A DNA stretch of 64,000 nucleotides from the NCBI RefSeq assembly GCF_964204645.1, contig NC_134025.1, positions 19,257,101 to 19,321,100 of the forward strand, read 5' to 3'. The translations under genes and the position numbers were made by a program. A model generated the notes under the pieces. The model searched no databases. It was not told where the DNA came from and was given only the letters and a program-made list of their open reading frames with translations. The stretch comes from Tubulanus polymorphus (lineage: Eukaryota > Animalia > Nemertea). This document shows positions 12,376 through 54,591 of the stretch, one piece after another. The stretch's first letter is position 1. Every line of letters begins with the position of its first letter.

Positions 12376-12429
12376 GGGAATTGTTCAGTTTGGTGCGTAA
12401 TGCTAGCAACCTTAATCCAGTGAATATGG

Positions 12430-12783: not shown

Positions 12784-13200
12784 AGTAATAGGGAAAGTGG
12801 GCTTTCAAATCAGAGTAAGAGAGTACGAGACACCACTCATCACCACAAGTAATTTTTTTTCCTTATAAATGGGAGATAGAAAAGCATTCTTAGCAACAAT
12901 AAATAACAGAATAAAACCAGCAAAAAACAATTTGAAATAAAAAAGTTAGTTGATGTTACAAAAGAAATTGAACATAAAATATTGAAATTAGAAAAGATAA
13001 AAACTAAATATGGAGAGAAAGTATCAGCGAATTTAAGCTACTGTAATGTTAGTACATCGCGAGAATTTAAAGTATTTTTACCTGATAAATGGGTTTCATT
13101 GAGTACAGAGGAATTAAAAGATTTAGAAGGATTTAAAATAATCTATCATGGAAAAAAAGAAGACGGTCATCATGATTTAGAAATTGTCGATTAAAATTAA
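12784..13200 (+). mobile_element. Remnant of a second, divergent Polinton/adintovirus family
   Basis: Starts AGTAATAGGG...GGGCTTTCA like 23264. A TATAAATG-initiated, frameshifted ORF (KKLVDV...TKYGEKV...FKVFLPDKW...GHHDLEI) is homologous to ORF 27797. Confidence 0.7.
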
Positions 13201-15379: not shown

Positions 15380-15383
15380 ATAG

Positions 15384-16130
15384 GTTTAACATTGAATAAA
15401 ACTATATTTTTAGATCTAAATATTTATAATACAAAAAGAAATAGAAAACCAAAAAGTAATACAATGTTTCCGAATAATTCAAAATTGTCAACAGAAAAGG
15501 ATATATAAGCATCATCTTATATTAGATTACCATCTACAACTTAACAAAAGCAGTAATAAATATTCGAAATGAAGATAATAAATGTTTTCTATGGTCAATT
15601 ATTAGTTGTTTACACCCAACTTAGGAAAATGTTCGTAGAATAACAGATGTCGGAAATATAAAACATAATATAAAATTGATCAATATCCAGTAACTATAAA
15701 AATAATTTCTAAAATAGAAAAAAGTTAATAATTTAAAGATAAATGTATTAAAATTGATACAATTACCAGAGACGATACAATTACCAAAGATGAAAGTATT
15801 AAAGATAATACATTAGAAGCTTTATATTCAACAGAAAAACATGATGATGATGATGATATACAATAGTATAATAAATCTATGTGGTTAAAACAAATAGATT
15901 TATTTTTCCAGAACAGAAAGTGATCACCATAATAAAATTCATTTATGAAAATGTTTATATTAATTTATGACAGAAAATGGATTATCAAAACATAAAGAAT
16001 TATGCGATAATAAAGATTTTTGTAAATTAATAATGCCAACAGAAAAAGCTAATAAATTGAAATTAACTAATTTGTTGATTTGTATTTAAAATCAGATGTT
16101 ATTTTATTGGCGGATATATTTGAAAAATTT
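15384..16130 (+). pseudogene. Degraded, divergent Polinton pPolB fragment
   Basis: Broken frames give ASSYIRLP, AVINIRNEDNKCFLWSIISCLHP, WLKQIDLFF and DLYLKSDVILLADIFEKF, all matching the 23739 pPolB. Confidence 0.85.
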
Positions 16131-23263: not shown

Positions 23264-23658
23264 AGTAATAGGGGTAATGGGCTTTCATACCAAAGGTGGA
23301 ACGGTCGAGCTCATTAAAAAACAAAACATTAAAAGTAATTTAAAACTATAATATATTTTCATAACCGTGAGCATTTTATATTATAACTAAATATTTATTC
23401 TAAGATATCAATAATTTAAAAAGCATATTGTATTAAATCAATTGGTCGCTCCACTTCGCTACCGCTCCGCTCCCCGACCAATTGATTTATTTACAATACA
23501 CAAGTTCATATAATCAAATATATTCAAATAATAATAGTATTCAACTGAAATACACACGGTTATGAAAATATATTATAGTTTTAAATTACTTTTAATATTT
23601 GTTTTTAATGAACTCGACCATTCAACCTTTGATATGAAAGCCCATTACCCCTATTACT
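23264..23658. repeat. ~395-bp imperfect palindrome at the left end of the viral element
   Basis: AGTAATAGGGGTAATGGGCTTTCAT... pairs with ...ATGAAAGCCCATTACCCCTATTACT. The inner stem AAATCAATTGGTCG/CGACCAATTGATTT encloses a CGCT-rich loop. Confidence 0.9.
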
Positions 23659-23738
23659 CTTAAAATATTCATATATATGAATAAAATATAAATCATTGAA
23701 CTTCTAAAACCAATTTTAATAAAAATTTAAGTATTAAA

Positions 23739-26700
23739 ATGGAAGCAAATAAGTACTACTGTCCAACATGTAATATCAATGTAGATAAATCCCAAAAAGC
23801 AAGACACAATAAAACTAAAACACATTTAGAAAATAAATTGAAACTAGAATATAAAGATGATATATTAGAAACTAAATTAGATGAATTAAAGAATGATAAA
23901 GAAACATATAAATGTGATACATGTAATCAATCATTCAGTGATAAAAGATATTATAATGAACATTTAAAATCTAAAAGTCATATTAGAAATAAGAATAATG
24001 ATATTTTAGGTGAAGATTATTTTGATAAAGATAATGATAAGAAACAGAAGACAATTAAAAGCATAAAAAATAAATTAAACAATAAAAGACCATACATGGA
24101 AGATGTAAGAAATTATATTAATTCATTAGATAATAAAAAAGATATAGAGATAACCGAAGCATTTAAAAGTGATATTGGCCCAGCAGCTATCGAGTTTAAA
24201 TTTCATAAAGGAAAAACATTAGAAGAAAATAAAAAACATTTAGAAAATATGAAAGAAATAATAAAAATAATTACAGATGTTGAATACCCTAAAATTAGTA
24301 TATCAGTTAAAGTAAAGTTTATAAAATCTGAAGATAAACCAATATATAATATAAATTCTCATTCACAACATATTATTTCAAAACAACATATAGATGATAA
24401 ATTAGATAGATGTTATAATGAAGTAAAAACTAAAATAGAAGAGAAATATTTTGAAGGATCTGGTTTAATATTTGATGAAATAATATTTATGACTTTACAT
24501 GTTTATAACACAAAATATAATAAGTTAACTAAATCAAAACCAATTGATGAAAATAATGTATCATATTATAAAGAACCAGATATTGAAGCATCGAGTTATA
24601 TTAAACTACCATTTAAAACTAATGCTGTTATAAATATACAAAATGAAGATGATAAATGTTTTCTATGGGCTATAATAAGTTGTTTACATCCAACAGAAGA
24701 TATTACACATAGTTTTAGATTAACTCATTATAAACCATTTGAAAATAATTATAAGATAGATAAGTATCCTGTTAGAATTAAAAACGTCCCAAAGATAGAA
24801 AGAGATAATAATTTAAGAATAAATGTATTTGATTTAATCAAATTACCAAATACAAAAGGTAACAATATAAAACATTATACATTAGAACCTTTATACCTAT
24901 CAAAAGATTATGATTCAAACGATGTTATAGATATACTATATTATGAGAATCATTATATGTGGATTAAACAAATTGATTTATTTTTTAAATCAGAAAATGA
25001 TCACCATAAAATATATCTTTGTAGAAAATGTTTACATAGATTCAGTAATGAAAGTACATTATTAAATCATAAACAATTATGTGAAAATCATGATTATTGT
25101 AAATTAGTTTTACCAAATGAAAAGGATAAAATATTAGAATTCAAAAAATATGATTACAAAAATAAAGTTCCATTTGTTATATATGGAGATTTTGAATCAT
25201 TAAATAAAGAACTAACTGATCAAGATAGAAAAGAAATATATTATAAGAGAAAGAAATTAAATTCTAATGAAAATGATTATTCTGAAGAACCACCAAAAAC
25301 AAATACTATTAAAAAGATTCATCAATCAGCTGCACCTTTCGGGTTATATATTAAATCTGATTATCCAGAACTAATTGAAAGTGAATATTATGATTATAGA
25401 AATGAAAATGTTATCAATCATTTTTGTGACTTATTAATTGAATATGAAATAAGATTTAGTAAATTATTGAATACAAATATAGAAATAATTATGACAGAAG
25501 AAGATAAAGAAGCATTTGAGTTTGCAGATAAATGTTATTATTGTGAAAAGATATTTAATTATAAAGATAAAAAAGTAAGAGACCATGATCATTTGAACGG
25601 AAAGTTTAGAGGCGCTGCGCATGAGAATTGTAACTTACAAGCTAAGAAAATTAATTTTGTACCAGTTATATTTCATAATCTATCAGGATATGATGCACAT
25701 TAATTCATCAAACAGTTATGCCATAAAATAGAAGAAATCAATAATGAAATAGAGAGATTAAATTCAAATAGATCAAAAGATAAAATACCAACTTATAAAT
25801 TTAGAATGTTAGCTAAAACATCTGAGAATTATATATCATTCCAATTTGGGTGTCTAAGATTTATAGATTCATATAGATTTTTAAATAGTTCATTAGATAA
25901 CTTATCAAAATCATTAGTTGATGATGAATTAAAAATATTAAAACAACATTATCAAAATAATGATGATTTTCAATTAATGAGATATAAAGGAGCAATTCCA
26001 TATTCATTTTATAAGAATCATAATGATTTCAATATAACTGAATTATTGAAAGAACAATGCTATGATGAATTAAAAAATGAATATGTTAAAGATGAAGTCT
26101 ATAATAGAACATTGAATCATTTCAAAATAGAAAATCATGGGCAATTAGTAGATTTATATTTAAAATCAGATGTATTATTATTAACCGATATATTCGAAAG
26201 GTTTAGAGATGTAAACCTAAAATATTTCAATATTGATCCTTGTCATTGTTATTCATCACCAGGTTTAACATGGGATTGTGGATTAAAATTTACAGATATA
26301 AAAATGGATTTGTTAACAAATATAGATCAATTACTATTATTTGAAAAATCTATAAGAGGAGGAGTTTCAGGTGTATTAGGTGATAGATATTTCAATGTAA
26401 ATGATAACCCTGGATATAAGTTATTATATATAGATGCAAATAATTTGTATGGTTGGGCAATGATGGAACCACAACCTTATGGAGTATTTGAAATAAGTGA
26501 AGTTTTACAGAATGAAAATAATGATAAATTTGATTGGAAGAAAAGAATTCTAGATATTGCAGATGATTCAGATACTGGTTACTTCTTTGTTGTAGACTTA
26601 GAATATCCTGAACATATTAAATTTAAATCTAGAAATCTAGCTTACTGTCCCGAACATAAAACTGTAACTCATGAAGAATTATCAAATTACCAAAAAAGAA

Positions 26701-27767
26701 TTAAACCCGAAAATCATATTCATACAGAAAAGTTAATGGTAACTCAAGAAGATAAATATAATTATGAAGTACATTATAGAATGTTAACGTTTTATCTAAA
26801 ACAAGGAATGGTTCTAAAAAAAGTACATAGATATATTTCATTTAGTCAATCTAAATGGTTAGAAAAATATATAGATTTTAACACCAAACAGAGAACTGAA
26901 GCTAAAACTGATTTCGAAAAAGATTTCTTCAAGTTAATGAATAATGCATTCTATGGTAAGACTTGTGAAAATATTAGAAATAGAAATGATATTGAGTTAG
27001 TTAGTAATGGTAAAAGGATAAGGCATTTACAATCATATCCTAAGTTCATTGGTAACAGAATATTTGATGAAAATTTAGCTGCAGTTAAGATGAGAAGAAC
27101 TTCTATGAAATTTAATAAACCAATCTATGTTGGTGCTTCAGTTTTAGAATTATCAAAATTACTAATGTATGAATTCTATTATAATGTATTACAACCACTT
27201 TTTGGAGAAAAACATATAGAAATCTTATATTTTGATACTGACAGTTACATATTAAAGATAAAAACTGATAACATAACTGATGATTTAAAAACATTAAAAC
27301 ATCATTTTGATTTTAGTAATTATCCCAAAGATCATGAATTGTTTAGCAATGATAATAAAAAAGTTCCCGGTAAATTCAAAGATGAATTAGGCGGTGAAGA
27401 AATGATAGAGTTCATTGGTATTAGATCTAAAATGTATTCATATAAAACTAAAGAACATGAAGCTAAAAAGTTAAAAGGAATAACCAAAAGTGTAGTAGAA
27501 AAGAATATTCATTTCAAAGATTACATCAATTGTATATTCAATGAAGAAGTTAGAAAACATAAGATGAGATGTTTAAGATCTGAAGATCATGAAATGTTTA
27601 TTGAAGAAATTGAAAAGATAAGTCTAAACCCATTTGATGATAAAAGATATATTCTGGATGATGGAATTCATACAGTTGCTTATGGTTGCAATTTAGATGA
27701 ATACTTAAAATTTAAAAGAGAAGAAACAAAAGAGAACGAGATATTGAAAAGAATTCTAACGTGTTAA
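23739..27767 (+). pseudogene. polB: Protein-primed family B DNA polymerase (1342 codons, one in-frame TAA at 25701-25703)
   Basis: Both ORFs are in the same frame. N-terminal C2H2 fingers, DDKCFLWAI/ENHY (vOTU-like), YGDFE exonuclease I, RDHDHLNGKFRGAAHENCN (Endo VII-like), FHNLSGYD, YIDANNLY, KLMNNAFYGK, YFDTDS. Confidence 0.95.
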
Positions 27768-27796
27768 TCAAATTTTAATAAAAATATGTTATTAAC

Positions 27797-28033
27797 ATGG
27801 AGAGTAAACAAGCAAACAGTGAGAACAACAAATTATTTCTAGATAGAATTAAAGATATAACAAATGTAAAATCTGTAGATTATAAATTCAAAAAGTTAAC
27901 AGAATTAACAATTCATAAGAAATATCTAATTACAAATATTGATACAGTTACTAATAACTATGGAGATAAATTAGTTATACACTTAGAATATGAAGGATTA
28001 AAAGGAAATACATATAAATTCAGAACATATTTA
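27797..28033 (+). pseudogene. Small conserved viral protein (TxYG...F-x-x-[YF]-LP type), C-terminus deleted
   Basis: Homologous to the copy at ~12090-12330 (minus), which keeps the C-terminus, and to 12869-13194. Confidence 0.7.
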
Positions 28034-28665
28034 AGTTTATGTAATTCTTTTTATAATATAACGGATAAAACTATTGAAGATAATACCTTTTTAATTCATA
28101 TTGGAAACGTAAATAAATGGTTTCATATAATTTTAAAACCAGGATTATATAATTTAGAAACATTAGCTCAAGAAATTAATCGAAGAGCACGGTTGAAAAT
28201 TAGAAGAGAAGATAAATTTTTAATTAGATTTATAAAAAGTGATAGCACAAATAAAATTAAAATAAAGGTATATGATGAAAGTCAACATGCATTTATGGTA
28301 AAAAAAAACCATTAGCTAAACTGTTAGGAATTGCACCAGATACTGTTACAGGAAACGTAGATGGTAATTCAAATATAATACCTTTTACACACTTTTATAT
28401 TTATTGCAATTTAATCGAGCCTACAAAAACATTCGAAGCAACTAAAGATACAATTTGTAATTCTAGTATATTAGATATTTTACCATTAAAAAACGTTAAA
28501 CAATTTGGAACTCAAATAAATTATAATTTAGCTGAATGTGATTTTAAACCTTGTATTCCTAAATTTAATAATTTTAAATTAGAAATAAGAAATCACAATG
28601 GATATTTAATTGATTTGAATAACTTTCCTGTAATTTATGAATTAGTTATAAGATGTAGAGAGTAA
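28034..28665 (+). pseudogene. Minor capsid (penton) protein, N-terminus deleted, frameshift in the A-run at ~28300
   Basis: NSFYNI, LKPGLYNLETL, LAKLLGI, FYIYCNLI, ILDILP and IDLNNFPVIYELVIR fit a single jelly-roll penton pattern. Confidence 0.75.
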
Positions 28666-28681
28666 TTTTTTCACTATATAA

Positions 28682-29041
28682 ATGAATATAAATGTTGGAC
28701 CGAGCATATGTTTTGGATTTGATTTTAAACGTGAGAAAGAAATGAAATTTAACATTAATGATGTAATTACACATATTAAAAATATTGCATTTTCTAATGA
28801 AACAACATTTGAGTATGAAACAACAATAGATAAAGAAACTTTAAATGTAGAAAAGATTACTAATTTAATTAGAGAATCTTTAAGATTTTATGAATTAGAT
28901 GAAGATTTTATCATCGATGATATTAAAAAAATAATAATTGAAATATATACAAATGAAACTAGTAATGAAATAAATGTTGAATTAATCGTAAATAAGTTAA
29001 CTAAATATTTTGATGATAGTAATTTTTTTATAAATAAATGA
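28682..29041 (+). CDS. Viral hypothetical protein, 119 aa, acidic
   Basis: Intact ORF with TATATAAATG start. Confidence 0.7.
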   Translation: MNINVGPSICFGFDFKREKEMKFNINDVITHIKNIAFSNETTFEYETTIDKETLNVEKITNLIRESLRFYELDEDFIIDDIKKIIIEIYTNETSNEINVELIVNKLTKYFDDSNFFINK

Positions 29042-29259
29042 GTGATAATAAGTGGATAATAACTGGATTATATAATGGAGCATTACTATCAGTTGGAACT
29101 GTTGGTTATTCAATGGTATTAAAAAAAATATTCAAAATGGGAAGTGTTAATGTTGATAGATTTGATATAAATGATATTTTAAAGTTAACATTAGCAGTTA
29201 CTTTATCTAATTTAACTATAGATTATTTAGAAAAACAAAAATATATTCCTCCCATATAA
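29038..29259 (+). CDS. Viral small hydrophobic protein, 73 aa
   Basis: Intact ORF with TAAATG start and two hydrophobic stretches. Confidence 0.7.
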   Translation: MSDNKWIITGLYNGALLSVGTVGYSMVLKKIFKMGSVNVDRFDINDILKLTLAVTLSNLTIDYLEKQKYIPPI

Positions 29260-29283
29260 ATGCATAATTATTTTACTAAATAA

Positions 29284-29706
29284 ATGGCTTCTGCAGTTAT
29301 AACTATTATAGGATCGGCAATTGTTAACGATTTAGCATTTACTGGTGGTGGTTATTTATTCAAGCATATTGATAAAAATGGTTCATTAACAGAACAAAAA
29401 AGACATAACTTAGCATTAGAGAAATATAATAAAGCAGCAGAAGAATATAGAGAAAATAGACAAAACTATATGGATTATATTAACAAGGAATTATATGATC
29501 AGAAGATTTCACATAGAGATTTTCAATCAGTTGATGATGCAATGAGTTTATATAACGCGGTAACCAATAAAGAAAAATTACATCTATACAAACCCAAATC
29601 ATCAGATTATTATACCCCAAGTAATGAACAGAAGAAATATGAAATAATATGGATTTTAGGTGGAACAGTTATTGTTATATTTGTTGCTTATAAGTTTACT
29701 AATTAG
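29284..29706 (+). CDS. Viral membrane protein, 140 aa
   Basis: Hydrophobic Gly-rich N-terminus, coiled-coil middle and C-terminal TM (IIWILGGTVIVIFVAY). Confidence 0.75.
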   Translation: MASAVITIIGSAIVNDLAFTGGGYLFKHIDKNGSLTEQKRHNLALEKYNKAAEEYRENRQNYMDYINKELYDQKISHRDFQSVDDAMSLYNAVTNKEKLHLYKPKSSDYYTPSNEQKKYEIIWILGGTVIVIFVAYKFTN

Positions 29707-29730
29707 TAATTTTTTTTTTTTGCTAAATAA

Positions 29731-30165
29731 ATGGATGATAAAGTTGATAATATTGATATTATTCCTCATGATATAAATAAAACTAAATTAAAAACATATT
29801 TAGAAAAACAAATATTAGAATTTGAAAGTGACTTAAAGATAAAAAAGAAAAAATATTTAAAAAGTAAAATTATATATTATTTGATTATAAGTGGTTCGGT
29901 TACAATTAGTTCTGTAATAACATTTCTAGCAATATTTTCACCATTAACACCTTTAGCTATATCAATTGGTGTATTAGGATTAAGTTCAAGTGTTTTAACC
30001 GGTATAAGTTCAAAATTAAATATAAAAAGCAATAAAGAAAAAATTAAAACTAATATAAAAGAAATTAATAAATTAAAGAATACACTAGATTATATAATAA
30101 GTTTAAATGGCCATATAACAGTTGAAGAACAAGATAAATTATTAAAAGAATTAATAAATTATTAA
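29731..30165 (+). CDS. Viral 2-TM coiled-coil protein, 144 aa
   Basis: Central hydrophobic hairpin flanked by coiled coils. Confidence 0.75.
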   Translation: MDDKVDNIDIIPHDINKTKLKTYLEKQILEFESDLKIKKKKYLKSKIIYYLIISGSVTISSVITFLAIFSPLTPLAISIGVLGLSSSVLTGISSKLNIKSNKEKIKTNIKEINKLKNTLDYIISLNGHITVEEQDKLLKELINY

Positions 30166-30181
30166 TTTTTTAATTATATAA

Positions 30182-31348
30182 ATGGTAGATAGTTTTCCAA
30201 AAGCTTTCCAATATAATAAATCAATTAAATATAATATTCCTGCAATAGATTTTAATAAAGATATTACATATAGAAATGAAGTTTTAAATTCATTAATTGA
30301 TTTATATATTTATGTTACTGAAAGTAATAATTTTCATGTAAAGATGGAAAATATATTTCATGTGTATACAATTAATTTCAAAAATTTAAATGAGGCAAAA
30401 CAATGGTTATTAAAATCTAATATGAAGTATTGGCAGAACCAATTAAATTTTGCTGTTTATTGTGCAACAACAGGATGTGGAATTAGTTGGAATGATCATT
30501 TAAACAAACCAAGTTTACCATTGATGTTATCACTTTTTAGATTTCATACTTATTTTCAAATAAAATTAATATTAGATGAATTAGAATGTCCTTTACCAGG
30601 TTCAAAATATTTTAAAGAATTGAATATTAATATTAATTTATCTTTTGGAAAAATAATGACAAATTCAGATATAAGAACACTAAATTGGAATGAATTACCA
30701 AAATATTATAATAATATACAACAACAAAACAATAATGGTTGGGATAATTTCATTTTAGAAAATGGTGAAGGTTTTACTAAAGCTGGTATACAAAGAATAA
30801 ATCAATCTATTAGAACTTATTTGATATGTATTTTAGGTGCGCAAGTTGAAACAAGATCCCCAATAATTGGAAATGATAACACTTCATTCGATGCGCAGAA
30901 ACAATTCAAAGTATTATTTGAAGATTCCATTCATAATGATAAAAATAGATCGATTCCAGAAAACATTGTAAGATATCAAAATCATTTAGATAAATCACAT
31001 ATTAGATTAAATTATTGTATAGGCCCTAATCTATTTATTATTTCTAATGATTTAGTATTAAAGATGGGAAACATAATTGGTTATAATAATCTAATTAAAA
31101 CTGCAACAATAAATAATTCATTTGGATTGAATGATATAAATAAAAAGATTATCACTGCTCCAAAATTAATGGAAGGTGAAAAAAATAAAAAACATATTCA
31201 ATCAACTGAAACTAAAACTAATAATATTAAATTAAATAATGATTCTAAAATAAAAGATTATAATACTACAGAAGATATTAAAACTGATATTATTCAACAT
31301 GATATAATTAAACTAAATGATGATAATCCCATGAAAATGCTAAATTAG
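30182..31348 (+). CDS. Viral hypothetical protein, 388 aa
   Basis: Long ORF with motif WQNQLNFAVYCATTGCGISW. A hydrophobic tail appears frameshifted at ~31340-31400. Confidence 0.75.
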   Translation: MVDSFPKAFQYNKSIKYNIPAIDFNKDITYRNEVLNSLIDLYIYVTESNNFHVKMENIFHVYTINFKNLNEAKQWLLKSNMKYWQNQLNFAVYCATTGCGISWNDHLNKPSLPLMLSLFRFHTYFQIKLILDELECPLPGSKYFKELNININLSFGKIMTNSDIRTLNWNELPKYYNNIQQQNNNGWDNFILENGEGFTKAGIQRINQSIRTYLICILGAQVETRSPIIGNDNTSFDAQKQFKVLFEDSIHNDKNRSIPENIVRYQNHLDKSHIRLNYCIGPNLFIISNDLVLKMGNIIGYNNLIKTATINNSFGLNDINKKIITAPKLMEGEKNKKHIQSTETKTNNIKLNNDSKIKDYNTTEDIKTDIIQHDIIKLNDDNPMKMLN

Positions 31349-31758
31349 CTTTATCTTGTATAGGAATTGTGATCGGAGGAATATTATATTTTAAATTTTA
31401 ATTTTTTTATTATGTAAATGGCAGAAGGTGGAGGAGATATTCCATTGGATCCTTTAGATGAACCTGGTATAAGTGATGAACAACCACTTGATTTTGATGA
31501 AACAAGTTTTAGTAATGATAATAAAACAGAATATAATACTAATTTAAATACACCTGAATTTATTGATAAAACACGTTCAAAGATAAGTACTGAAAATGAA
31601 GTACCAGAATTAACAGGAAAAGAATTTAAATATAATGAAATTGCTAGTGATTTTAAACCAACGTTAAAAAGATCTGGTTTCAATATAACACATAAAGGTA
31701 TGGATTATTTAGTAAAAGGTTTGAAATATTTTAATGGTTCTTAGGAAGAGAGTTCAAA

Positions 31759-32591
31759 TATCCGAATAACCATAGAAGCGATAACATTAAAAACCTCATT
31801 TTCTAATGAGTAAATACAGTTTATTAACACGAACGTTTTCGGGATCATATCCCCTCATCAGGTGAAATACAAGTGAATCAAATGATTAAACTACAGGTTT
31901 ATATACAACATAAGTTACAAAATTACAAGTGCTAAATTCTAAGCTTATTACAAACCAAGTATTTAATTACAAACTAATTATTTGAATACATTTAGGATAA
32001 AGGATGAGCCGTTTTGAAATAATTGTTGATTTAAAGAGGGTCGTTGCGCTTTAATAAACAGGGCCTCCCTAATTTTTTTACAGTCGAGATCAGATGAACC
32101 TTTGTCTAGAATTTTGAATTTGTTGTTACTATATTCCTGATCACAAGTGTGACAAATTGCGAGATGTTGTCCAATCGCAGAAGTCTTTGATCTGTGTTCC
32201 TTAATCCTGATGGCCAAATGTCGTTTAGTTTTCCCAATATAGGAAGTGTTTATATCACATAAACAATTAAATTTATATATGACTTTAGCCTTCAGCGATT
32301 TAGGGGTAGCACATTTCAAAGAGAAAAAATTCTTAATTTTGGTCGTAGTGAATGCACATTTCAAGTTGATTTCAAAATTCCTTTTAAATAGATATTTTAA
32401 TTTTCGGGCAAATAGGATTGACGGGTTACCAATATACGGTAATGAAATGAATAGATCAATTCCATCTTCAACAGGTTTCGGTTGATTTTTTGAAAAATCT
32501 GTTTAAATCTAATGCGTTTCCTATTCATGTCATCGATCAATGTATTAATAGATTTTTGAAATCAAAACAGAACTCAGAACCTCAATCAAGA
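31759..32591 (-). mobile_element. Penelope-like retroelement, 5'-truncated with 5' inversion
   Basis: GIY-YIG ORF 31978-32364 (VIYKFNCLCD...YIGKTKRHL..RIKEH...EALFI). TSD AGAGTTCAAA at 31749-31758 and 32592-32601. The RT tail 32490-32590 lies on the opposite strand. Confidence 0.88.
31828..31864 (-). ncRNA. Minimal type I hammerhead ribozyme of the Penelope element
   Basis: Minus strand reads cac-CTGATGA-g-gggat(atg)atccc-GAA-AACGTT-C-gtg: complete catalytic core, stem II and palindromic stem III. Confidence 0.82.
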
Positions 32592-33421
32592 AGAGTTCAA
32601 ACTGAAAAACTTTTACCGAATGGATTACTTGATGCAACAGATCAACAATTAGAAGATTTAGATATATTTTCTGATAAAGCAATTAGAGAGATTATTAGTA
32701 TAAGAAATGAAGCTGATAAAATTGCACATGAAAAAAGTAAAAGAGATATTAAAATTAACAATTTAGAAAAAGAATTAACTGATAAAAATGAAGAAATAGA
32801 ACAACTAAAGTCTGATTTAGATCATCAAGTAATTGATGAAATAGAATATAAGCAAAAAGAATCACGTTTAAAAAAAGAAAAAGATGATTTAGAATATAAC
32901 ATAGAATTACAAAAAGAAGAAATTAAATTATTATTAAAATCATATGATTATAATAATAATAGATTAAAAGTTATTTCTAAAGATTTGTTGATTAAACCAA
33001 ATTCTGAAATATCGTTGAAAGATAGAATAAAGTTATTATTTAAATTAGAAGGAATAACAATTCTTTCAATTCTAACAGCTGTAACTATGTTATTCACAAC
33101 AATTGGTTTAGCTATATCAAATGCGTTAAAATCTACTCCTACTCCAAATAAACCAGATAAACCCCCAGATAATAATTCTATACAAGATAAAGTTAAAGAT
33201 GGTTTAAAGAAATTAGCAAAATATTTATGGGAACTATCTAAAAAATCTGCTGCAGCTTTACCAGGAATTATTGCATCAATTGTTGGTTTTATATTGAAAT
33301 CTGCAGGAAACATTATTAACTTTGCTACTGCTATTTTATTTTTAATTACAGTTGTAAGTGCTATTATTTTTGGTTTAGTAAACATGATAAAAAATAAATA
33401 ATTAATTTTTTTGTTAAATAA

Positions 33422-34671
33422 ATGAGTGGGAGTCATATAAGTCCTTCTAAGATTTCTAGAATATCTAATGCTATTAAAGCAGAAAGATCACATCATATAA
33501 TTACTCATAACCCTTCAAATATTAATCCCGATGAAACTTTATATGTTAGAATTCCTAGATTAACACAAAATACTTTTTATGTTCCAAATAGTATCTATTT
33601 ATCCGCCGATATAAAAGTAATCGGTAATAATAATAATTATGTTGTTGATAATGTTGGAAGATATTTGATTAAAAAATTAACTATAAAGATTGGTCCAGAA
33701 ACAGTTTTCTCATTAGATGATTATAATTTATTTATGCATTATAAAGATTTATGGTTAACTAAAGAAAATAGAAATAAGATGATATTTCAAGGCATCCAAT
33801 CAGAAAACCAAAATAAATTAAGATCAGAGGCTAATAGCGCAATATTAACTAATGCTGTAGATAAATTGATAAAAAGTATATATGGAAGCAAATATAAAAT
33901 TCCATTAGACTTTGAATTGATAAATAATAATGCACCTTTATATAAATACGCAATTCAAGAAGACGTTATATTCGAAATAACATTTGCTCCTGTAAATGAA
34001 ATTGTATTATCTAGCGTTAACAAAGATATGAGTTATAAATTATCGAATATATGTTTAGAATATGATACAGTAACTGATGAAAATATTTCAAGTATAATTC
34101 AAACTCAATACAATCAAGGATTTTCATTATTATATGATTATATTGATAAATTTAAAACCGCAACTATTAATGCAAATGATGAAATAATTAATGAGAATAT
34201 TAACTTCCCAAGAAGATCTATTAAAGGTATATTAATATTTTTTACCATTGCAACATATACTAATGGCGCAATAAATGTTGATAATTATTATAATCCTGAA
34301 ATAACAAAAGTAGAAATAACTATCGAAGGAATAGCAAATAAAATATATTTTGTCAAGGAATGAGAATGATTGATCAATGGCCAGAAATTAGAAAACATTT
34401 TATGAATGAAAAAGTAAAATCATCTGAAAATTGTAATATTAATCAAATTGATTATTATACCGGTAATAAATATGCATTATGGTTAGATTTTAGAACAACA
34501 GAGGATAATTTATTACATGGTTCTGGAAAAAAACTACAGAACACTAAAGATGGAATACAATTATTCATGACAAAGAAAAAGGGAAGCCTAAATTTCAAAA
34601 TGCACATTTATATTATATCTGACGCGCAATTAAATATTGTAAATACACAATTAGATAGTGTTATGTATTAA
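33422..34671 (+). pseudogene. Major capsid protein (double jelly-roll), single frameshift near 34350
   Basis: Overlapping 313-aa and 103-aa ORFs total ~415 aa. Beta-rich pattern (NPSNINPDETLYVRIP, FEITFAP, YKLSNICLEYD, ALWLDFR, YIISDAQ). Assignment rests on size, pattern and context. Confidence 0.8.
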
Positions 34672-34703
34672 AATTTTAACTTTAATAAAAAATCTTTTAT
34701 TAA

Positions 34704-35492
34704 ATGGAAGGAGGTAAAGTATATAAACATATTCCATACATCGATACACATGAAAATAATGATGGTTTATATTATGTAATACCTTGTAATATAGCTTTGA
34801 TATTTGATCCTATTTTCAAAATGAATAAAACTAAACTAATAGAAATCGATAATAATAAAAGTGAAGTTGTTGATAATTTAAGTAATGTAATTGATAATAA
34901 TGTAATACCTACTACAGTAATACCTACTACAGTAATACCTACTACATCTAATAATGTAATACCTTCTCCATCTAATAATGAAATAATATTAAATGTTAGT
35001 GAAAATAGAAATTATTGTGATTATTGTAAAGGTGAATTTTCAAACGCTCCATCAAATTGGAATAAACATATGAATACAAAGGTACATATTACTAATGTAA
35101 TAGAACGTGTTGGTTTAAAAGAATTTATAGAACACCCATTTAGATATGTTACAAAGTTTGTTTCAAATAAAAAAGTAAATGGTAAAGAATTATATGAAGA
35201 TTTTTTATTAGCAACACCTAATAAAGATGAATTAGATTTAACTGATGCTAATGAAATATTAGGATCAAACACTGTAAATGAAATATTAGGAGCAAACACT
35301 AATAAAGATTCTATGAAACATAAAGTAGAAAATAATGATAAATTTGATTGGATGAATAAGCATAACAATGAAACAACTATTGATGATGCGGTAAAAAGGG
35401 TGAAGAATAAGTATAAAAATAAAACAACTATTGACGATGATACGGTAGAGAATTTGAATAAATTGTTAGGATCTGATAGTGAAAGTGATTAA
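34704..35492 (+). CDS. Viral zinc-finger protein, 262 aa
   Basis: CDYC...HMNTKVH C2H2-like finger and VIPTT x3 repeat. Confidence 0.7.
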   Translation: MEGGKVYKHIPYIDTHENNDGLYYVIPCNIALIFDPIFKMNKTKLIEIDNNKSEVVDNLSNVIDNNVIPTTVIPTTVIPTTSNNVIPSPSNNEIILNVSENRNYCDYCKGEFSNAPSNWNKHMNTKVHITNVIERVGLKEFIEHPFRYVTKFVSNKKVNGKELYEDFLLATPNKDELDLTDANEILGSNTVNEILGANTNKDSMKHKVENNDKFDWMNKHNNETTIDDAVKRVKNKYKNKTTIDDDTVENLNKLLGSDSESD

Positions 35493-35526
35493 GATATTAA
35501 TTATATTTAACATATATAATAATAAT

Positions 35527-35875
35527 ATTGGTTGAAAATTGTATAAAATAATAGTAAATAAAAAAGGGGGTTTTAAGTATTTAAGGTATTTAAGGCATCT
35601 AATACATATCTAATACATATCTAATACATATCATTTGAAAATACCTTAAATTATATTTCTTTTTTAAATTTATGTTGAAACCTCAGTAATAATAAATAAC
35701 CTTTATTATTTTCAAACTTATTCATATATTTGTTGAAAAAATAAAAATAAATTGGTTGAAAATTGTATAAATAATATTTATTTTAAAAAAGGGGGTTTTA
35801 AGTATTTAAGGTATCTAATAGGGTATCAGGTATTAGGGTATCTAATAGGGTATCTAATACATAGGTATACAAATA
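35527..35875. repeat. Duplicated intergenic module between the convergent gene blocks
   Basis: ATTGGTTGAAAATTGTATAAA...AAAAAGGGGGTTTTAAGTATTTAAGGTAT occurs at ~35527 and ~35751, each followed by (ATCTAATA...) short repeats. Confidence 0.8.
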
Positions 35876-35876
35876 G

Positions 35877-36485
35877 TTATTTTGTAAATTTATATTCATA
35901 TGGAAATTGTAATCTCAGTAATAATTTTGAACCTTTATTATTCTTTAATTTTTTCATATATTCATCATATAATTCTGTAGGTATAATTTGATTTTCTTCC
36001 AATGATTGTTGCATAGATTTTCTATCTTTATTGTAGAATAAAACTAGAAATCTTATATTCTCCCTAAAGTCTTTAACAATTAAATTATATTTTTGATTTA
36101 AAACCCATGTTGTTATCCTAAAATGTCTTCCAGAGAAAGCTAAATAACATAACTCACTTTCTCTCACTTTTGAATCATGTAAATTTGCGCAATCATCTAC
36201 AATGAATAATGTATTTGATCCTTTATAAGCATCAATTGCTATTTTTATACAATTATCTAAATTTTCTTTTACTGTTTTAGGATTTAATATAATAAACTTT
36301 TTCATCTTAACTATATCTCTATTATATGTTTTATTCATTTCATAAGTAGGACAAAATAATATGATATTATCAAAATGATTCTTATAAATAGTTTCTAACA
36401 AATCTAATATGAAATGTGTTTTACCACAATTGGTTACACCAGTAACTAACATATGCGGTTCAAATATAAATAAATCTTTATTCAT
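35877..36485 (-). CDS. A32/FtsK-like genome packaging ATPase
   Basis: Walker A GVTNCGKT, Walker B FIVDD, SGRHF arginine motif, LNQ sensor. Confidence 0.92.
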   Translation of the reverse strand: MNKDLFIFEPHMLVTGVTNCGKTHFILDLLETIYKNHFDNIILFCPTYEMNKTYNRDIVKMKKFIILNPKTVKENLDNCIKIAIDAYKGSNTLFIVDDCANLHDSKVRESELCYLAFSGRHFRITTWVLNQKYNLIVKDFRENIRFLVLFYNKDRKSMQQSLEENQIIPTELYDEYMKKLKNNKGSKLLLRLQFPYEYKFTK

Positions 36486-37326
36486 TTATTCTTTTAATTT
36501 CACTAGATAAAATCCATTCATTAAATTTATCATCGTATCCTTTATATTTCACCAAAGAATACTTTTTTCCTTCAAGAGTTTTTGTTTTCAATACTTTTTC
36601 TATTTTGTATTCTATTTCATCTGGATTTGGAACAAGTGATAATTCTTGTTCATAGAAATAACCTAATATTTCTTCATCTTTTAGATCTTCTAATTTATAA
36701 ACAAAAGGTCGATATATTTATATGTTTCATTAGCAGTAAAATATTTCCACATTCTAGTTTTCAATGTTTTATTAAATCTTTCTATAATAGATGCTTTTTT
36801 ATCTGAATGTGTTGAAAAATAATCTACATCGTTATCAGATAATAGTTTTTTAAAATGTTATAAAATTCCTTACCTTCATCAAATTGTATCTTATCTGGAA
36901 AAGCTTCTTTAAATATAGATTTAAAAGCATTTGTTACTTCTATTCCAGTTTTATTTTGATTGGAATTGACCATGCGTATCTACTGAATATGTCTATAACA
37001 TTTAATATCCAGAAATATCCTTTGTTGTGTTCTTCTGAGTTCTTCATGTCAATTAAATCAGCTTGCCATTGTTGATCAATATGTGAAACCATAACTTTTC
37101 TTGTTAAATAAGTTTTATCCATTTTCTTATGTATTTGATATGTGGGTTGGTTTTGTAACCATGATTTTAATTCACTATATTTTATATCACCGTGTGGGTG
37201 CCATACGGCACCACCACCATTTTCCTTATCAGATTTAATTTTATTCCATAATTCTGAAACGTTAGAATATGATACTTCACTTTCTGGGTTATAATATAAA
37301 TCTCTTAAATATTGTTCTTTTTTCAT
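36478..37326 (-). pseudogene. int: Retroviral-type (rve) integrase with C-terminal chromodomain; frameshifted and internally deleted
   Basis: WQADLIDM, IDIFSRYAW, then after a frameshift PDKIQFDEGKEFYN, and finally LVKYKGYDDKFNEWI. Confidence 0.9.
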
Positions 37327-37332
37327 CTTATT

Positions 37333-37815
37333 TTAATCCATTAATAATAATTTAGATTTAGTTTCAATGGTTTTATGATTTGACTTATTTTCTGGTATGA
37401 TAGGTTTATTGTCTGTACACGGATAACTAAGTTTCCGATCATCATTGGAATCATCTTTATCATCAAATTTGAATTTTGATTTATATATTACACCGGATAA
37501 TATAATAACTGTGATTAACCCAATTGTAATATATAATTTATAATTACTTCCAGCATTAGAAGAATCAGATGGATTATCATTCGAATCAATATCAGATAAT
37601 TTCTGTGATTCATTTATATCAGTTAATTCTTTTTTCTTAGCTTTTTTTAATTCTGAAGATCTTTTTCCTAATTCTCTTACCCATTTAATTTGTTTCTCTA
37701 TATCAGTTAATTTCTTTTTCTTAGCTTTTTTTAATTCTGAAGATCTTTTACCTAATTCTCTTGCCCATTTAATTTGTTTCTCGGATCTAGCCTTTTTCTT
37801 AACGTCATCACTCAT
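37333..37815 (-). CDS. Viral basic protein with one TM segment and a 28-aa internal duplication, 160 aa
   Basis: EKQIKW[AV]RELGKRSSELKKAKKK[KE]LTDI x2; TM LYITIGLITVIILSGVIY. Confidence 0.75.
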   Translation of the reverse strand: MSDDVKKKARSEKQIKWARELGKRSSELKKAKKKKLTDIEKQIKWVRELGKRSSELKKAKKKELTDINESQKLSDIDSNDNPSDSSNAGSNYKLYITIGLITVIILSGVIYKSKFKFDDKDDSNDDRKLSYPCTDNKPIIPENKSNHKTIETKSKLLLMD

Positions 37816-38410
37816 TTATTTTAGTTAATTTTTGTTCTGATTCATTTTTTGTTTCGACGTTTGGTTGTAGTACATCTGTTTCGTTCTTACCTGATTTATA
37901 TTCCATAGGCTTGATGTTCGAAAATGTTATGACACCAGTAGAAATTAATGTCATAACCGATCCTAATTGAAATGAAGCATAACCAACCCATTTTTGTAAT
38001 TCAGTCATAACTAAATAGTCATTTTTCAAATCACTATATAATTTATTTTCATCATCAATTGGTATTAACTGGTTACATAATTTTGAATAACATTTGACAA
38101 TACCATCACTTATAGAGTCGTTTATTCTAGCTAATCTAGCTTCTTCATAAATCTTAAAATATTTTATTACTTTATCTGGTTTCATAGAGTCTAGTTCTTG
38201 AAAAGTAATGATTCTATTTAAAAACTCATTAGTTTTTCCACCGGCAATCAATAGTTCTAGATGATGCTTACAATATAAATAGTATTCATAATCTATATTG
38301 TTATTAACTTGAATAGAATTAGAAACAACTGTATCTTTATTATCACTAATACCCAAATCATCTAATGTCTTTTCAATATCAATACTATTCTTATTAGATT
38401 TCTTTGACAT
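37808..38410 (-). CDS. Viral hypothetical protein, 200 aa, hydrophobic C-terminal segment
   Basis: Intact ORF with TATAAATG start; overlaps the next gene. Confidence 0.72.
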   Translation of the reverse strand: MSKKSNKNSIDIEKTLDDLGISDNKDTVVSNSIQVNNNIDYEYYLYCKHHLELLIAGGKTNEFLNRIITFQELDSMKPDKVIKYFKIYEEARLARINDSISDGIVKCYSKLCNQLIPIDDENKLYSDLKNDYLVMTELQKWVGYASFQLGSVMTLISTGVITFSNIKPMEYKSGKNETDVLQPNVETKNESEQKLTKINE

Positions 38411-39559
38411 TTATATTAGAGAAAAAAGCGAAAAAAATATAATAAGTATTCTTCAAATGATACTAGTATCTCTTTAGATTAATACTAGCTTAGTTAAAGG
38501 TAAAGAATTTTAGTATTAGTTATTGTTTTTTTAGTATTTTTTATTTGTGATATAAAGTATTCTTTTTTGAAAAGAAAATATTAAAAAAACAATAACTAAT
38601 ACTAGCTAGTTGAAGATATGTAATTTTTAATACTTTTTATTTAAATTAGGATTTAGATTATCTCACTACTATTGTTTATCTATAGGAGCAGTAATTATAA
38701 CTGTCCAGATAAGTCATTTCGGATTCTTGATAATAAATCCTAAAACTAAAAATAAATTCAAAGAAACGACTGGTGGAAATACTATTTCATAAACACATAT
38801 ATTTTATTCTACAATCATTATCGATTTCCACATTCCAAGCCGATCGGCTGAGGCCCGGTAAGTTATGCGTGGAATGCAGGAATCAATAAAGTACAATACA
38901 ACATCTGTCACTGTGTGTCATAAACAACAGCTTAATGACGCAATTGAAATTCCGACAAACGTAATGCATTGAAAGCCTATACAGTATGGCTAAACTGCTA
39001 CAGGCTCATGAGTTGAAATATCCATTATTTCTGATTCCACATCCATCTATCTTCACTTTCTTGATTCAATGGCCTTCATTTTGTTATCTAAAAGATAAAT
39101 ATCTAGCGTAGAATAAAACTAACTTGAAGTTGTAGTTGTAAAATATTAATTACAACACTTAAACATGGCCATTTGTGGCTCATCTTACCAGGATAAGTTT
39201 TACATGTTTAGCGTTTTCCAACGCCTTAATAACAACAAAAACAGTACTTACATTTATAACTGTAAACTCCTAAAATTGTGTTTATAGAGAGAATATCCTA
39301 TACGTTCCTATGCTTATGTGCTGCGCGTTTATAACTGCCAGTTATTCACTAGCTAAACACTATCTGGTGCAACAGATGTTCCTTTGTTCTTTTATGATTA
39401 ATCCTTTTCAACTGAAATAGCACATTCGATCAATATTCAAATGAGATACACCCTATTCAACTGAATATGAAATACGGCACAGATGTTTTTGTAAACAACC
39501 TAATACAATTACATACAGGCGGTTTGACATAGATCGAGAGTAACCGGTTTTGTAAGCGT

Positions 39560-40291
39560 TTAATATTCAACGTATTTTTCATTATGTGTTGAGTTCCATA
39601 ATTCAACAAATGTCTTTGCTTTATCCAGTTGATCTAAATATAACTGTAAATCTAGTTTATTAGATTTAATTATGTTTTCCTTCTTTTCTAAAGGTCTTAA
39701 ATTCTTCCAGCACCAGATTAGCTTCTTATTATAATCATCACTCATGTCAAATTTAGAAATTGGCAACACATGATCAATATGAAAGTATTCACCATAATTA
39801 TCTATATTCATTTTATCATCGAATTGATATATTATCCATGATTTTAAGAATTCATCTGTACAACCCAACAAATTAGATAATGTTTCTGAATGTGTTTCTT
39901 TGTTGAATAATTGTGTTAATCTAATTCTCAAACATTGTTTCAATTTGTAATTAAAATCTGTATGATATTTTTCCTTATAATAATTTCTATTATACACTTT
40001 AATATGTTCTAAATGATTTTCTTTCCATTGCTTATTTTTATCTTTGCGTGTTTCAGTATTATTTCTATAATTTTGTTTGTCACTTAGTTTACTACAAGTT
40101 TTACAATAACTTTGCTTACCATCTTTCTGAGTTTTATAATTATAATATTCCGAGAGTTGTTTATTTATTTTACATTTAGAACATTTCTTATTGTTTATAT
40201 TTATAGTTTGTGTACTTTCCACACATCTGGAATTATCTGACGATCTCATCTCGGTAAAGTTAAAAGTTATTTTTCCAAAAATATCCGACAA
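39560..40291 (-). CDS. HNH endonuclease with N-terminal CxxC zinc ribbon (giant-virus/homing type); likely ATG at ~40248
   Basis: CSKC...KDGKQSYCKTC, FHIDHVLPISKFD, WKNLRPL...ENIIKSNK. Confidence 0.85.
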   Translation of the reverse strand: MSDIFGKITFNFTEMRSSDNSRCVESTQTININNKKCSKCKINKQLSEYYNYKTQKDGKQSYCKTCSKLSDKQNYRNNTETRKDKNKQWKENHLEHIKVYNRNYYKEKYHTDFNYKLKQCLRIRLTQLFNKETHSETLSNLLGCTDEFLKSWIIYQFDDKMNIDNYGEYFHIDHVLPISKFDMSDDYNKKLIWCWKNLRPLEKKENIIKSNKLDLQLYLDQLDKAKTFVELWNSTHNEKYVEY

Positions 40292-40485
40292 AATATGTAA
40301 AATATGAACCCAGCAGGCATTTATTACTGATATAATATGATTTCAATGGTTAAAATCGATATAGAATAAATAAATATGTTATATTTAATTTCATCTCGGT
40401 TGATCTCGGTTCATCTCGGTAAAATACATCATCTCGGTAATAAGGATGACCGCCTGCGATCTGCCCTCACAAAGCGGTAGACAAA

Positions 40486-41136
40486 ATGATTCGACCATAC
40501 GGAAACATCCTTACGGGATCCTATCACCCGACGATAGGAAAAACAACATTTCAGAACGGTGAGAAACGTATACTGGAGGTAGCTATTACATCACCTATCC
40601 CACGGAATATAACTTTTGATTCGAAACGTTATGGATTACTTCTTGTAAGGGTTTATTACAACGGTCAGCCTGAACATTGCGTGATATGTGGACAATTTAA
40701 TCACACCTGGGTTGAGTGCAACATTGCATGTACTCATCCAACCCATACACCCGATCGATGCCGTCAAATCCATTTCCGACAGACCGTTTCTTTAACATTG
40801 ATGAAAAAAGGAAACCCAACACCGTCGACAGAAATGGCCGTTGTCACTGATGAGTCGAGAAAGAGGCCATCATCTCCAACTGAACTTTCTCAAACGCCGA
40901 AGAAGTCGCACAAGTCAAAGGCGCCTTCGGAAGATGAGAAGTCCCCGATAATCGACCTGGAGAAGCCAGCCCAAACTGAAGACGAAGAATCTGACACGGA
41001 CGATGCGAGAGAAACTGCTGCAAAGCCAACAAATTCAAGCACTGCACTACCCGCACCAGTCCGACCACAGAAAAAGAGTCAACCAAAGAGTCAGCCAAAA
41101 AGTCAACCAAAACCAAAGACTAAAAGATCAAATTAA
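40486..41136 (+). CDS. Tx1/L1 ORF1 (partial)
   Basis: VYYNGQPEHCVICGQFNHTWVEC zinc knuckle followed by a low-complexity tail. Confidence 0.8.
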   Translation: MIRPYGNILTGSYHPTIGKTTFQNGEKRILEVAITSPIPRNITFDSKRYGLLLVRVYYNGQPEHCVICGQFNHTWVECNIACTHPTHTPDRCRQIHFRQTVSLTLMKKGNPTPSTEMAVVTDESRKRPSSPTELSQTPKKSHKSKAPSEDEKSPIIDLEKPAQTEDEESDTDDARETAAKPTNSSTALPAPVRPQKKSQPKSQPKSQPKPKTKRSN

Positions 41137-41184
41137 GGTGATGTAGAATTTTCACTAATTATGTAGGTAAAAAAAGGACATACA

Positions 41185-54550: not shown

Positions 54551-54591
54551 AGAGAAATACAGAGACAGGGCCCAATATTAGGAGAAATTTA

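What the first reader, a model, noticed from the sequence alone, without database searches (positions are those of the whole stretch)
23264..40440. Endogenous Polinton-like virus with no visible adenain protease and a block of membrane proteins
Seen: a near-complete viral gene set (pPolB, penton, MCP, A32 ATPase, integrase) in two convergent blocks. No adenain-type cysteine protease ORF is recognisable, although canonical animal Polintons/adintoviruses carry one. Instead about six ORFs have predicted membrane segments (29038, 29284, 29731, 31418-33401, 37333, 37808). Inference: a distinct lineage with a membrane-containing virion or membrane-entry module, maturing without adenain. Most genes are intact or have single lesions, which suggests recent integration.
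Basis: partly seen in the sequence, partly recalled or inferred. Interest (0 to 1): 0.85.

Follow-up and report, generated by a model that had tools for sequence, protein, structure and literature searches.

The report
Protease-less Polinton with membrane-protein module
This is a decayed copy of an integrating DNA virus from a known but little-studied animal lineage that has no detectable capsid-maturation protease; its relatives keep the same set of about seven predicted membrane proteins beside the capsid genes, which likely give the particle a lipid membrane or a membrane-entry device.

Summary
The element is real. It has a left terminus at 23264, pPolB, penton, a double-jelly-roll MCP, A32 ATPase and a chromodomain integrase, and many sister copies in the host. 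A tested protease profile finds no adenain in the window or in 80 related loci, two of them bounded by terminal inverted repeats, so the lack is a trait of the lineage. The lineage is not new: the MCP matches Polinton-3_NV of Nematostella (57 of 116 residues, by eye), listed without protease in 2014 and placed near protease-less Polinton-like viruses. What my ten literature searches did not find described is the conserved gene block. Five genes (29038, 29284, 30182, 31418-33401, 37808) plus probable equivalents of 29731 and 37333 travel with this MCP across three replicase types and 20-60% GC. Four of the six claimed membrane ORFs are clearly hydrophobic, two are marginal, and a seventh (30182, tail-anchored in 108 of 120 homologs) was missed. 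A membrane-bearing virion is the likeliest reading but is untested. 'Recent and mostly intact' is overstated: four of five hallmark genes are broken and the right end is missing.

The parts
23264..23658 (.). Left terminus beginning AGT; itself a 395-bp imperfect palindrome (77% identity between arms)
   Evidence: diverse flanks in reads at 23263/23264
23739..27767 (+). Protein-primed DNA polymerase B with N-terminal C2H2 fingers and an endonuclease VII-like insert; one in-frame stop at 25701-25703
27797..28665 (+). Small ORF fused by a deletion (about 28033) to the penton (minor capsid) gene, which also has a frame break between 28186 and 28375
   Evidence: (blastn against the second fragment)
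28682..29041 (+). 119-aa ORF of unknown function, shared with L001 only at its N-terminus
29038..29259 (+). 73-aa two-helix protein, conserved (21 of 80 loci); only marginally hydrophobic
29284..29706 (+). 140-aa protein: Gly-rich hydrophobic N-terminus, charged helical middle, C-terminal predicted TM segment; 28 of 80 loci
29731..30165 (+). 144-aa two-TM protein, weakly SLATT-like (PF18142 E 0.004, below cut-off); probable equivalent of family F8 in distant relatives
   Evidence: HHalign 83%
30182..31386 (+). Largest conserved unknown (420-500 aa in relatives): mostly helical domain with a conserved Cys/His cluster, flexible linker and C-terminal anchor; here with an internal in-frame deletion and the anchor out of frame after about 31327
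31418..33401 (+). One gene in relatives (430-485 aa): acidic N-terminus, coiled coil, hydrophobic segment, Pro-rich hinge, cationic amphipathic helix, two more hydrophobic segments; interrupted here
   Evidence: 42 of 80 loci
31745..32564 (-). Foreign insertion (approximate bounds) holding a nuclease-like ORF fragment at 31978-32502; the Penelope/GIY-YIG label is recalled from its motif and comes from no call
   Evidence: contig depth changes over this stretch
33422..34671 (+). [quoted passage not shown]
34704..35492 (+). 262-aa ORF with a zinc finger, shared with the closest relatives only
35877..36485 (-). A32 packaging ATPase, intact
36478..37326 (-). RVE integrase with chromodomain; two frameshifts and a deletion of about 85 codons
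37333..37815 (-). 160-aa basic protein with one predicted TM segment; holds an 84-bp tandem duplication
37808..38410 (-). 200-aa helical protein, conserved (34 of 80 loci); marginal hydrophobicity here, N-terminal hydrophobic extension in many distant relatives
39560..40249 (-). HNH / endonuclease VII-like ORF; homologs sit inside 5 related loci
   Evidence: (phrog_1035 E 2.6e-19)

Best explanation
This is a mutated, right-truncated copy of a high-copy integrating DNA virus of the Polinton-3_NV lineage, whose capsid module has no detectable adenain and whose conserved hydrophobic proteins likely build a lipid membrane into the particle and would carry the genome across a host membrane. SHOWN: the gene set; the double-jelly-roll MCP; the match to Polinton-3_NV; no adenain-type gene in this copy or in two repeat-bounded relatives; the membrane genes stay with MCP, penton and A32 while the replicase is swapped. 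INFERRED: (1) pPolB copies the linear genome from its termini and the RVE integrase inserts it, as established for Polintons. (2) MCP and penton assemble on a membrane seeded by the tail-anchored 30182 protein and the small proteins 29284 and 29038, and A32 pumps DNA in; the basic, single-TM 37333 would tie DNA to the membrane. (3) Assembly on a membrane would need no precursor trimming, as in the protease-less PLVs and, from my own knowledge, the membrane-containing phages PRD1 and PM2. (4) 31418-33401, with a coiled coil, a hydrophobic segment and a cationic amphipathic helix, would be the membrane-breaching protein at entry.
For: Lineage: MCP 57 of 116 identical without gaps to P3_NV (by-eye count against Fig. 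S3); Table S1 lists Polinton-3_NV as MCP+, ATPase+, protease-; 34 family A32s separate from 9 A32s of protease-bearing loci at 100/100. No protease: a profile of 64 domains from 63 loci gives no window hit at E up to 10 and best E 1.6 in L001-L080 among 20,911 segments; it recovers 4 of 4 left-out proteases at E 5e-14 or better; its best HHalign probability against 23 families or single ORFs is 0.5%; it finds 20 of 20 and 19 of 20 decayed controls at 5% and 10% divergence. L056 (126-nt repeats, 5-bp flanking duplication) and L034 (99-nt repeats) are bounded elements without it. Module: 8 of 18 loci of 6 kb or more hold all of 30182, 32451, 29284, 29038, 37808 and penton; those five genes occur in 0 of 63 protease-bearing loci; gene order is shuffled but the set persists with three replicase types. 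30182 has 1,137 homologs among 7,996 scored candidates, one named from the bivalve Mactra; 108 of 120 have a C-terminal hydrophobic segment and 0 of 120 an N-terminal one, against 0 of 72 MCP controls.
Against: No particle, transcript or protein evidence. Membrane prediction is a hydropathy window, and 29038 (5 of 21 homologs pass) and 37808 (12 of 36 fail; the N-terminal segment may depend on start-codon choice) are weak. Holin-like and SLATT proteins are already reported as common polisuvirus accessories with a proposed role in defence or exit, not in the virion (10.64898/2026.10.13.758929). The link to Polinton-3_NV rests on one by-eye MCP comparison; its other genes were not available to me. 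The right end of this copy is missing, so its own full gene list is unknown. The protease profile comes from metagenomic loci, not named Polintons, and its sensitivity falls to 14 of 20 and 8 of 20 at 15% and 20% decay. The 63 control loci were picked by their protease and hold other capsid types, so the zero counts show lineage difference, not functional exclusion.
Confidence: 0.55

Rival explanations
1. The lineage assignment and the lack of protease stand, but the particle is a bare protein shell. The hydrophobic proteins act in the infected cell, as holin-like exit pores, factory-membrane organisers or abortive defence against a helper giant virus.
For: 29731 is weakly SLATT-like; 29038 is a small two-helix protein; holin-like and SLATT families are reported across polisuviruses with these proposed roles. 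The nearest named capsid group, PgVV, includes a giant-virus parasite.
Against: Defence and exit genes are usually patchy (own knowledge), whereas five of these genes persist together across 20-60% GC and three replicase types and stay next to capsid genes.
Confidence: 0.3
2. Maturation does use a protease that the search cannot see: 30182 is a divergent membrane-anchored Cys/His enzyme, or the protease is supplied by the polymerase's vOTU domain or in trans by another Polinton in the same genome.
For: 30182 keeps an invariant His122 across 129 sequences and Cys94, Cys99, Asp105 and His106 nearly so in the 15-sequence set. A few papain-like chains appear among the low rows of the fold search (Z 2.3-2.6, about 60 residues). 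Polinton pPolBs carry an active vOTU (PMC11071308 passages).
Against: His122 lies inside a long helix (113-133) and Cys99 just after the end of another, unlike the strand-borne His of papain-like enzymes (own knowledge). The protease profile scores 0.1% against 30182. A Cys/His cluster fits a metal site or disulfide as well. vOTU is proposed to release the terminal protein and is absent from relatives that use a helicase replicase.
Confidence: 0.1
3. The family spreads only as a transposon inside genomes; the capsid and membrane genes are relics and no particle is made.
For: This copy is broken in four of five hallmark genes; all read evidence is genomic; no virion has been observed for Maverick-Polintons.
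Against: Intact full-length MCPs are widespread (351 clusters at 50% identity with E up to 1e-30) and fold with high confidence; relatives keep intact membrane genes at 20-45% identity.
Confidence: 0.05

Closest known systems
Polinton-3_NV and Polinton-N1A_NV of Nematostella vectensis (PMC4028283; PMC11296320)
   Same: MCP 57 of 116 identical to P3_NV over window MCP residues 19-134 (by eye); ATPase present, protease absent; similar size (16.6 kb for Polinton-3_NV; 14.4 and 15.3 kb for L034 and L056; 17.2 kb span here).
   Different: A penton was not found in Polinton-3_NV in 2014 but is recognisable here. The hydrophobic gene block is not mentioned in the passages I read. The other P3_NV genes were not compared.
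Polinton-like viruses, PgVV group / Aquintoviricetes (PMC4642659; 10.64898/2026.06.19.733378)
   Same: Minimal module of MCP, penton and A32 without protease; replicase swapping, including SF1-helicase forms in three relatives. [quoted passage not shown]
   Different: Has both pPolB and RVE integrase, which PLVs mostly lack; sits at high copy number in what is probably an animal genome; no lipase, tyrosine recombinase or methyltransferase was detected.
Canonical Mavericks/Polintons and adintoviruses (PMC8502044; PMC4028283)
   Same: pPolB of the endonuclease VII-insert type, chromodomain RVE integrase, A32, penton, AGT terminus; they too carry predicted membrane-active accessories (PLA2X, GasderminX, cupiennin-like).
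   Different: No adenain; different MCP lineage per the cited papers; no Pfam or PDB sequence match links the hydrophobic genes to those accessories, which were not compared directly.
Membrane-containing double-jelly-roll viruses: PRD1, PM2, PBCV-1, iridoviruses (internal membrane recalled, not from a call)
   Same: DJR MCP (best structural matches are PBCV-1, faustovirus, ASFV, EhV), A32-type pump, several small membrane proteins.
   Different: No sequence similarity to their membrane proteins was detected; the analogy is functional only.

Membership tests
Canonical Polinton/Maverick (adintovirus) | Protein-primed DNA polymerase B | tested here: met
   41% identity to L034 and L020 polymerases that hit PF03175; no direct Pfam hit for the window's C-half
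Canonical Polinton/Maverick (adintovirus) | RVE integrase | tested here: met
   broken in this copy
Canonical Polinton/Maverick (adintovirus) | Terminal inverted repeats and target-site duplication | tested here: inconclusive
   Left terminus shown; right one absent from the window. Relative L056 has both repeats and a 5-bp duplication
Canonical Polinton/Maverick (adintovirus) | Adenain/Ulp1-type maturation protease | tested here: not met
   Sequence-profile tests with controls; the right end of this copy is missing, but two repeat-bounded relatives also lack it
Canonical Polinton/Maverick (adintovirus) | MCP of the MavPol group 1 or 2 clade | not testable with these tools
   No named MavPol MCP sequences were on hand for a tree; published trees put P3_NV outside MavPol
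Polinton-3_NV-like clade | P3_NV-type double-jelly-roll MCP | tested here: met
   57 of 116 identical, by-eye count against Fig. S3 of PMC4028283; fold
Polinton-3_NV-like clade | A32 ATPase present, protease absent | tested here: met
Polinton-3_NV-like clade | Shared accessory genes with Polinton-3_NV itself | not testable with these tools
   The Repbase element was not available
Polinton-like viruses as defined in PMC4642659 | MCP, penton and ATPase without protease | tested here: met
Polinton-like viruses as defined in PMC4642659 | Usual lack of RVE integrase | tested here: not met
   RVE integrase present here and in relatives
Polinton-like viruses as defined in PMC4642659 | MCP or A32 within the PgVV/TVS clades | not tested
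   Taken from published trees for P3_NV only; my A32 tree had no named PLV
Clan CE or papain-like protease (for ORF 30182) | Protease fold with catalytic Cys-His pair | tested here: inconclusive
   Model; fold searches cannot exclude a family; profile comparison 0.1%
Membrane-containing DJR viruses | Lipid membrane and membrane proteins in the particle | not testable with these tools
   Needs particles

The most novel reading that the evidence does not exclude
The Polinton-3_NV clade is a large, overlooked class of animal DNA viruses with a membrane-containing capsid. It matures without a protease and enters cells with its own conserved machine: a tail-anchored 400-residue protein of no assigned family, a coiled-coil pore former and several small membrane proteins. 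It would be a tectivirus-like design kept in animal germlines.
Probability: 0.4. Interest if true: 0.8.

Novelty: new member of a known kind. Interest (0 to 1): 0.5.

Why it matters
No Polinton particle has been seen, and how these elements leave and enter animal cells is open. This clade is known only as two or three odd Nematostella entries, yet it has hundreds of MCP clusters and over a thousand homologs of its largest unknown gene. A fixed set of membrane proteins tied to the capsid genes gives concrete targets (lipid in particles, five to seven named proteins) for that question, and bears on whether loss or absence of the protease goes with assembly on a membrane. The lack of adenain alone is not news.

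Tried and rejected
No whole genome is held for this window, so sister copies were seen only through reads. MCP queries found no relative in viral contigs. Pfam alone is too weak a test for the protease: it found the L082 enzyme (PF00770, E 8.5e-5) but missed those of L081 and L083, hence the custom profile. A protein search with the L083 protease gave only 3 hits. tblastn of 64 proteases against the window gave best E 0.021, inside the polymerase; rejected. Fold searches with the 30182 model gave no clear match: best Z 3.7 among 48,161 chains, best Foldseek E 1.4 (PDB) and 0.55 (viral library); this shows neither a new fold nor a different one, and the model is above the 400-residue size where single domains can be missed. 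Sequence searches of solved structures with the MCP, 30182, penton, 32451, 29284 and 37808 alignments gave nothing significant (best E 0.037). The protein atlas gave no usable hit for 30182 and only scores below 0.9 for the 32451 family. Pfam on 15 members of 30182 and PHROGs on 26 proteins assigned no hydrophobic gene; a tape-measure hit for L034's 32451 homolog (E 0.009) is compatible with coiled-coil bias. A complex prediction of 30182 with MCP and penton was not run because the queue was full. No RNA holder was listed. Rejected: that the protease was deleted between the small ORF and penton (in L001 the two genes are adjacent); that 38733-39592 is core element (21 and 25 reads skip it); that 40452 is the Polinton's right end (it lacks the terminal motif).
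Full report
What is there. Between 23264 and about 40250 lies a low-GC element with a + strand block and a converging - strand block. It encodes a protein-primed polymerase, a penton, a major capsid protein, an A32 ATPase and a chromodomain integrase. An intact relative with 76% MCP identity folds as a double jelly roll, best matched by PBCV-1 (Z 27.0, rmsd 3.5, 351 aligned), with adenovirus hexon at Z 11.6. Reads of a genomic run of the same organism fix the left end at 23264: 1,984 reads leave the sequence there into unlike flanks. Summed depth over the element's bins is 110 to 1,335 against 43 in the bin over the neighbouring LINE, so the family is high-copy; the genome size is unknown and I give no copy number. 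The terminal motif occurs at 23264, at 23640-23658 (the left end is a 395-bp palindrome) and in a remnant at 12784, but not at the right side. There, 38733-39592 is skipped by some sister reads, an HNH gene follows, and a different repeat ends at 40452 before a LINE.

State of this copy. The polymerase has a stop; penton has a deletion and a frame break; MCP a frameshift; integrase two frameshifts and a loss of about 85 codons; 30182 an internal deletion and a frameshift before its anchor; 31418-33401 an 0.8-kb insertion. Only A32 among the five hallmark genes is whole. Of 81,718 laid reads, 3,481 are at least 99% alike, 31,782 are 95-99%, 37,301 are 90-95% and 9,154 are under 90%. This is a moderately old insertion in a diversified family.

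Is the protease really missing? Pfam cannot settle this, since it missed two of three proteases that I recognised by motif in control loci. I built a profile from 64 protease domains in 63 viral loci. It recovers 4 of 4 left-out members at E 5e-14 or better and randomly decayed controls in 20, 19, 14 and 8 of 20 trials at 5, 10, 15 and 20% divergence. It gives no hit in the window at E up to 10 and a best E of 1.6 in 80 loci of this MCP family, nothing in stop-masked frames (best window i-E 0.49, outside the element), and at most 0.5% HHalign probability against 23 families or single ORFs. The 80 loci are the best 80 of 157 confirmed matches, and most are short. Two are bounded by terminal repeats: L056 (15.3 kb, 5-bp flanking duplication) and L034 (14.4 kb, right repeat cut by the contig end). 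So the lack is a lineage trait, not a deletion in this copy.

Which lineage? Krupovic et al. 2014 (PMC4028283; I read parts 1-2 of 4 of the text and supplements 1, 4 and part 1 of 3) list Polinton-3_NV as MCP+, penton-, ATPase+, protease-, and N1_NV and N1A_NV as protease-. Their Fig. S3 prints the P3_NV MCP; by eye it matches window MCP residues 19-134 at 57 of 116 positions without gaps, and the C-terminal motifs also correspond. They found it in a clade with the PgVV capsid. Barth et al. 2024 (PMC11296320; passages and section 6) call Polinton-3_NV and N1A_NV a small clade with MCPs distinct from MavPol, next to the PgVV group. Yutin et al. 2015 (PMC4642659; passages) state that no PLV encodes the protease. 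Bellas et al. 2023 (PMC10120064; passages) note cnidarian MCPs outside the main Polinton cluster. [quoted passage not shown] Stephens et al. (10.1101/2023.10.06.561300; passages, section 8) report coral elements in the PLV clade and frequent unknown proteins. In my tree, 34 family A32s, the window's among them, separate from 9 A32s of protease-bearing loci at 100/100; no named reference was included. The element is therefore a Polinton replication and integration module joined to a PLV-like capsid module, and lacking adenain is expected.

The membrane block. Their families behave likewise: at least one segment in 21 of 24 homologs of 29284, 30 of 35 of 32451, 5 of 6 of 37333 and 18 of 20 of its probable distant equivalent, 16 of 17 of F8 (probable equivalent of 29731, HHalign 83%), 24 of 36 of 37808, but only 5 of 21 of 29038. 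ORF 30182 is a seventh: 108 of the 120 listed homologs end in a hydrophobic segment, none begins with one, and 0 of 72 MCPs do either at the C-terminus. Its model (pLDDT 84, pTM 0.78) is a mostly helical domain of about 350 residues, a low-confidence linker and a terminal helix, with a conserved Cys/His cluster. The set is stable. Eight of 18 loci of 6 kb or more hold 30182, 32451, 29284, 29038, 37808 and penton together; the other ten are partial contigs, which I did not check one by one. Gene order varies, GC runs from 0.20 to 0.60, and the replicase is an endonuclease VII-type pPolB (window, L034, L016, L020), a more distant pPolB (L056, 28% identity) or an SF1 helicase protein (L039, L040, L043). 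The five genes occur in 0 of 63 protease-bearing loci. The family is large: 351 MCP clusters at 50% identity with E up to 1e-30 and 1,137 homologs of 30182, one named from the bivalve Mactra antiquata.

How it likely works. Genes that stay with capsid and pump while the replicase changes are most simply particle genes (inference). I commit to assembly of MCP and penton on a membrane carrying 30182, 29284 and 29038, DNA filling by A32, and entry through 31418-33401, whose C-terminal half has a hydrophobic segment, a Pro-rich hinge, a cationic amphipathic helix (hydrophobic moment 0.63, net +4) and two more hydrophobic segments. None of these steps is shown. The main rival is a bare capsid with the proteins acting in the cell; Barth et al. 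2026 (10.64898/2026.10.13.758929; abstract, section 10 part 1 of 2, section 13, passages) report holin-like and SLATT families across polisuviruses and suggest defence or exit. Adintoviruses also carry predicted membrane-active accessories (PMC8502044; passages), so membrane proteins as such are not unusual. A hidden protease is a smaller rival.

Novelty. The clade and its lack of protease are in print. Ten searches and the passages above did not show a description of this gene block. The library lacks most subscription papers, and the supplements of the two 2026 preprints, which list gene families, were not seen; some of these families may be their holin-like groups. I also read passages of PMC11071308, PMC5499653, PMC7805220 and 10.1101/2025.04.19.649669. 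Verdict: a new member of a known, thinly described kind, with an apparently undescribed and testable membrane module; interest 0.5.

Noticed in passing
window 23264-23658: The left terminus is itself a 395-bp imperfect palindrome, and 606 reads leave the sequence at 23693, which may mark the inner edge of the terminal repeat. A hairpin end could bear on how replication starts.
   Followed up: partly
window 11647-12378 (-), 12784-13191 (+), 15383-16130 (+): Scattered remnants of related elements: a small-ORF/penton fragment (about 90% identical), a terminus followed directly by a small ORF 71% identical to L001:125-466, and a polymerase fragment (69% DNA identity).
   Followed up: partly
window 35516-35962 and 38511-38604: A 220-bp tandem duplication (75% identity) where the two gene blocks converge, and a 94-bp hairpin upstream of ORF 37808.
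   Followed up: no
window 40240-40452: End of another abundant repeat with short subterminal repeats and diverse flanks in 643 reads; its other end is not in the window.
   Followed up: partly
window 40486-43881: LINE with ORF1 and an endonuclease/reverse transcriptase ORF directly after the element.
   Followed up: no
L039:8797-11484, L040:9279-12458, L043:4807-6852, L056:12597-16619: The same capsid and membrane gene set is paired with an SF1 helicase protein or a different pPolB, a clear case of replicase swapping in one clade.
   Followed up: partly
L034:913-1788, L042:1181-1705, L028:5082-5576, L001:10343-10981: Accessory genes in relatives: a tail-fibre-like ORF and a C1q-like ORF next to penton, a VLTF3-like ORF, and a deoxynucleoside kinase. 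The window shows no fibre gene.
   Followed up: no
L083:2740-4248: A protease domain fused to the N-terminus of an RVE-chromodomain integrase in an unrelated element.
   Followed up: no
L081:3-12044: A Sputnik-type MCP with protease and lipase beside a polymerase 39% identical to the window's.
   Followed up: no
window about 51900-54600: Long tandem array with a 34-bp period.
   Followed up: no
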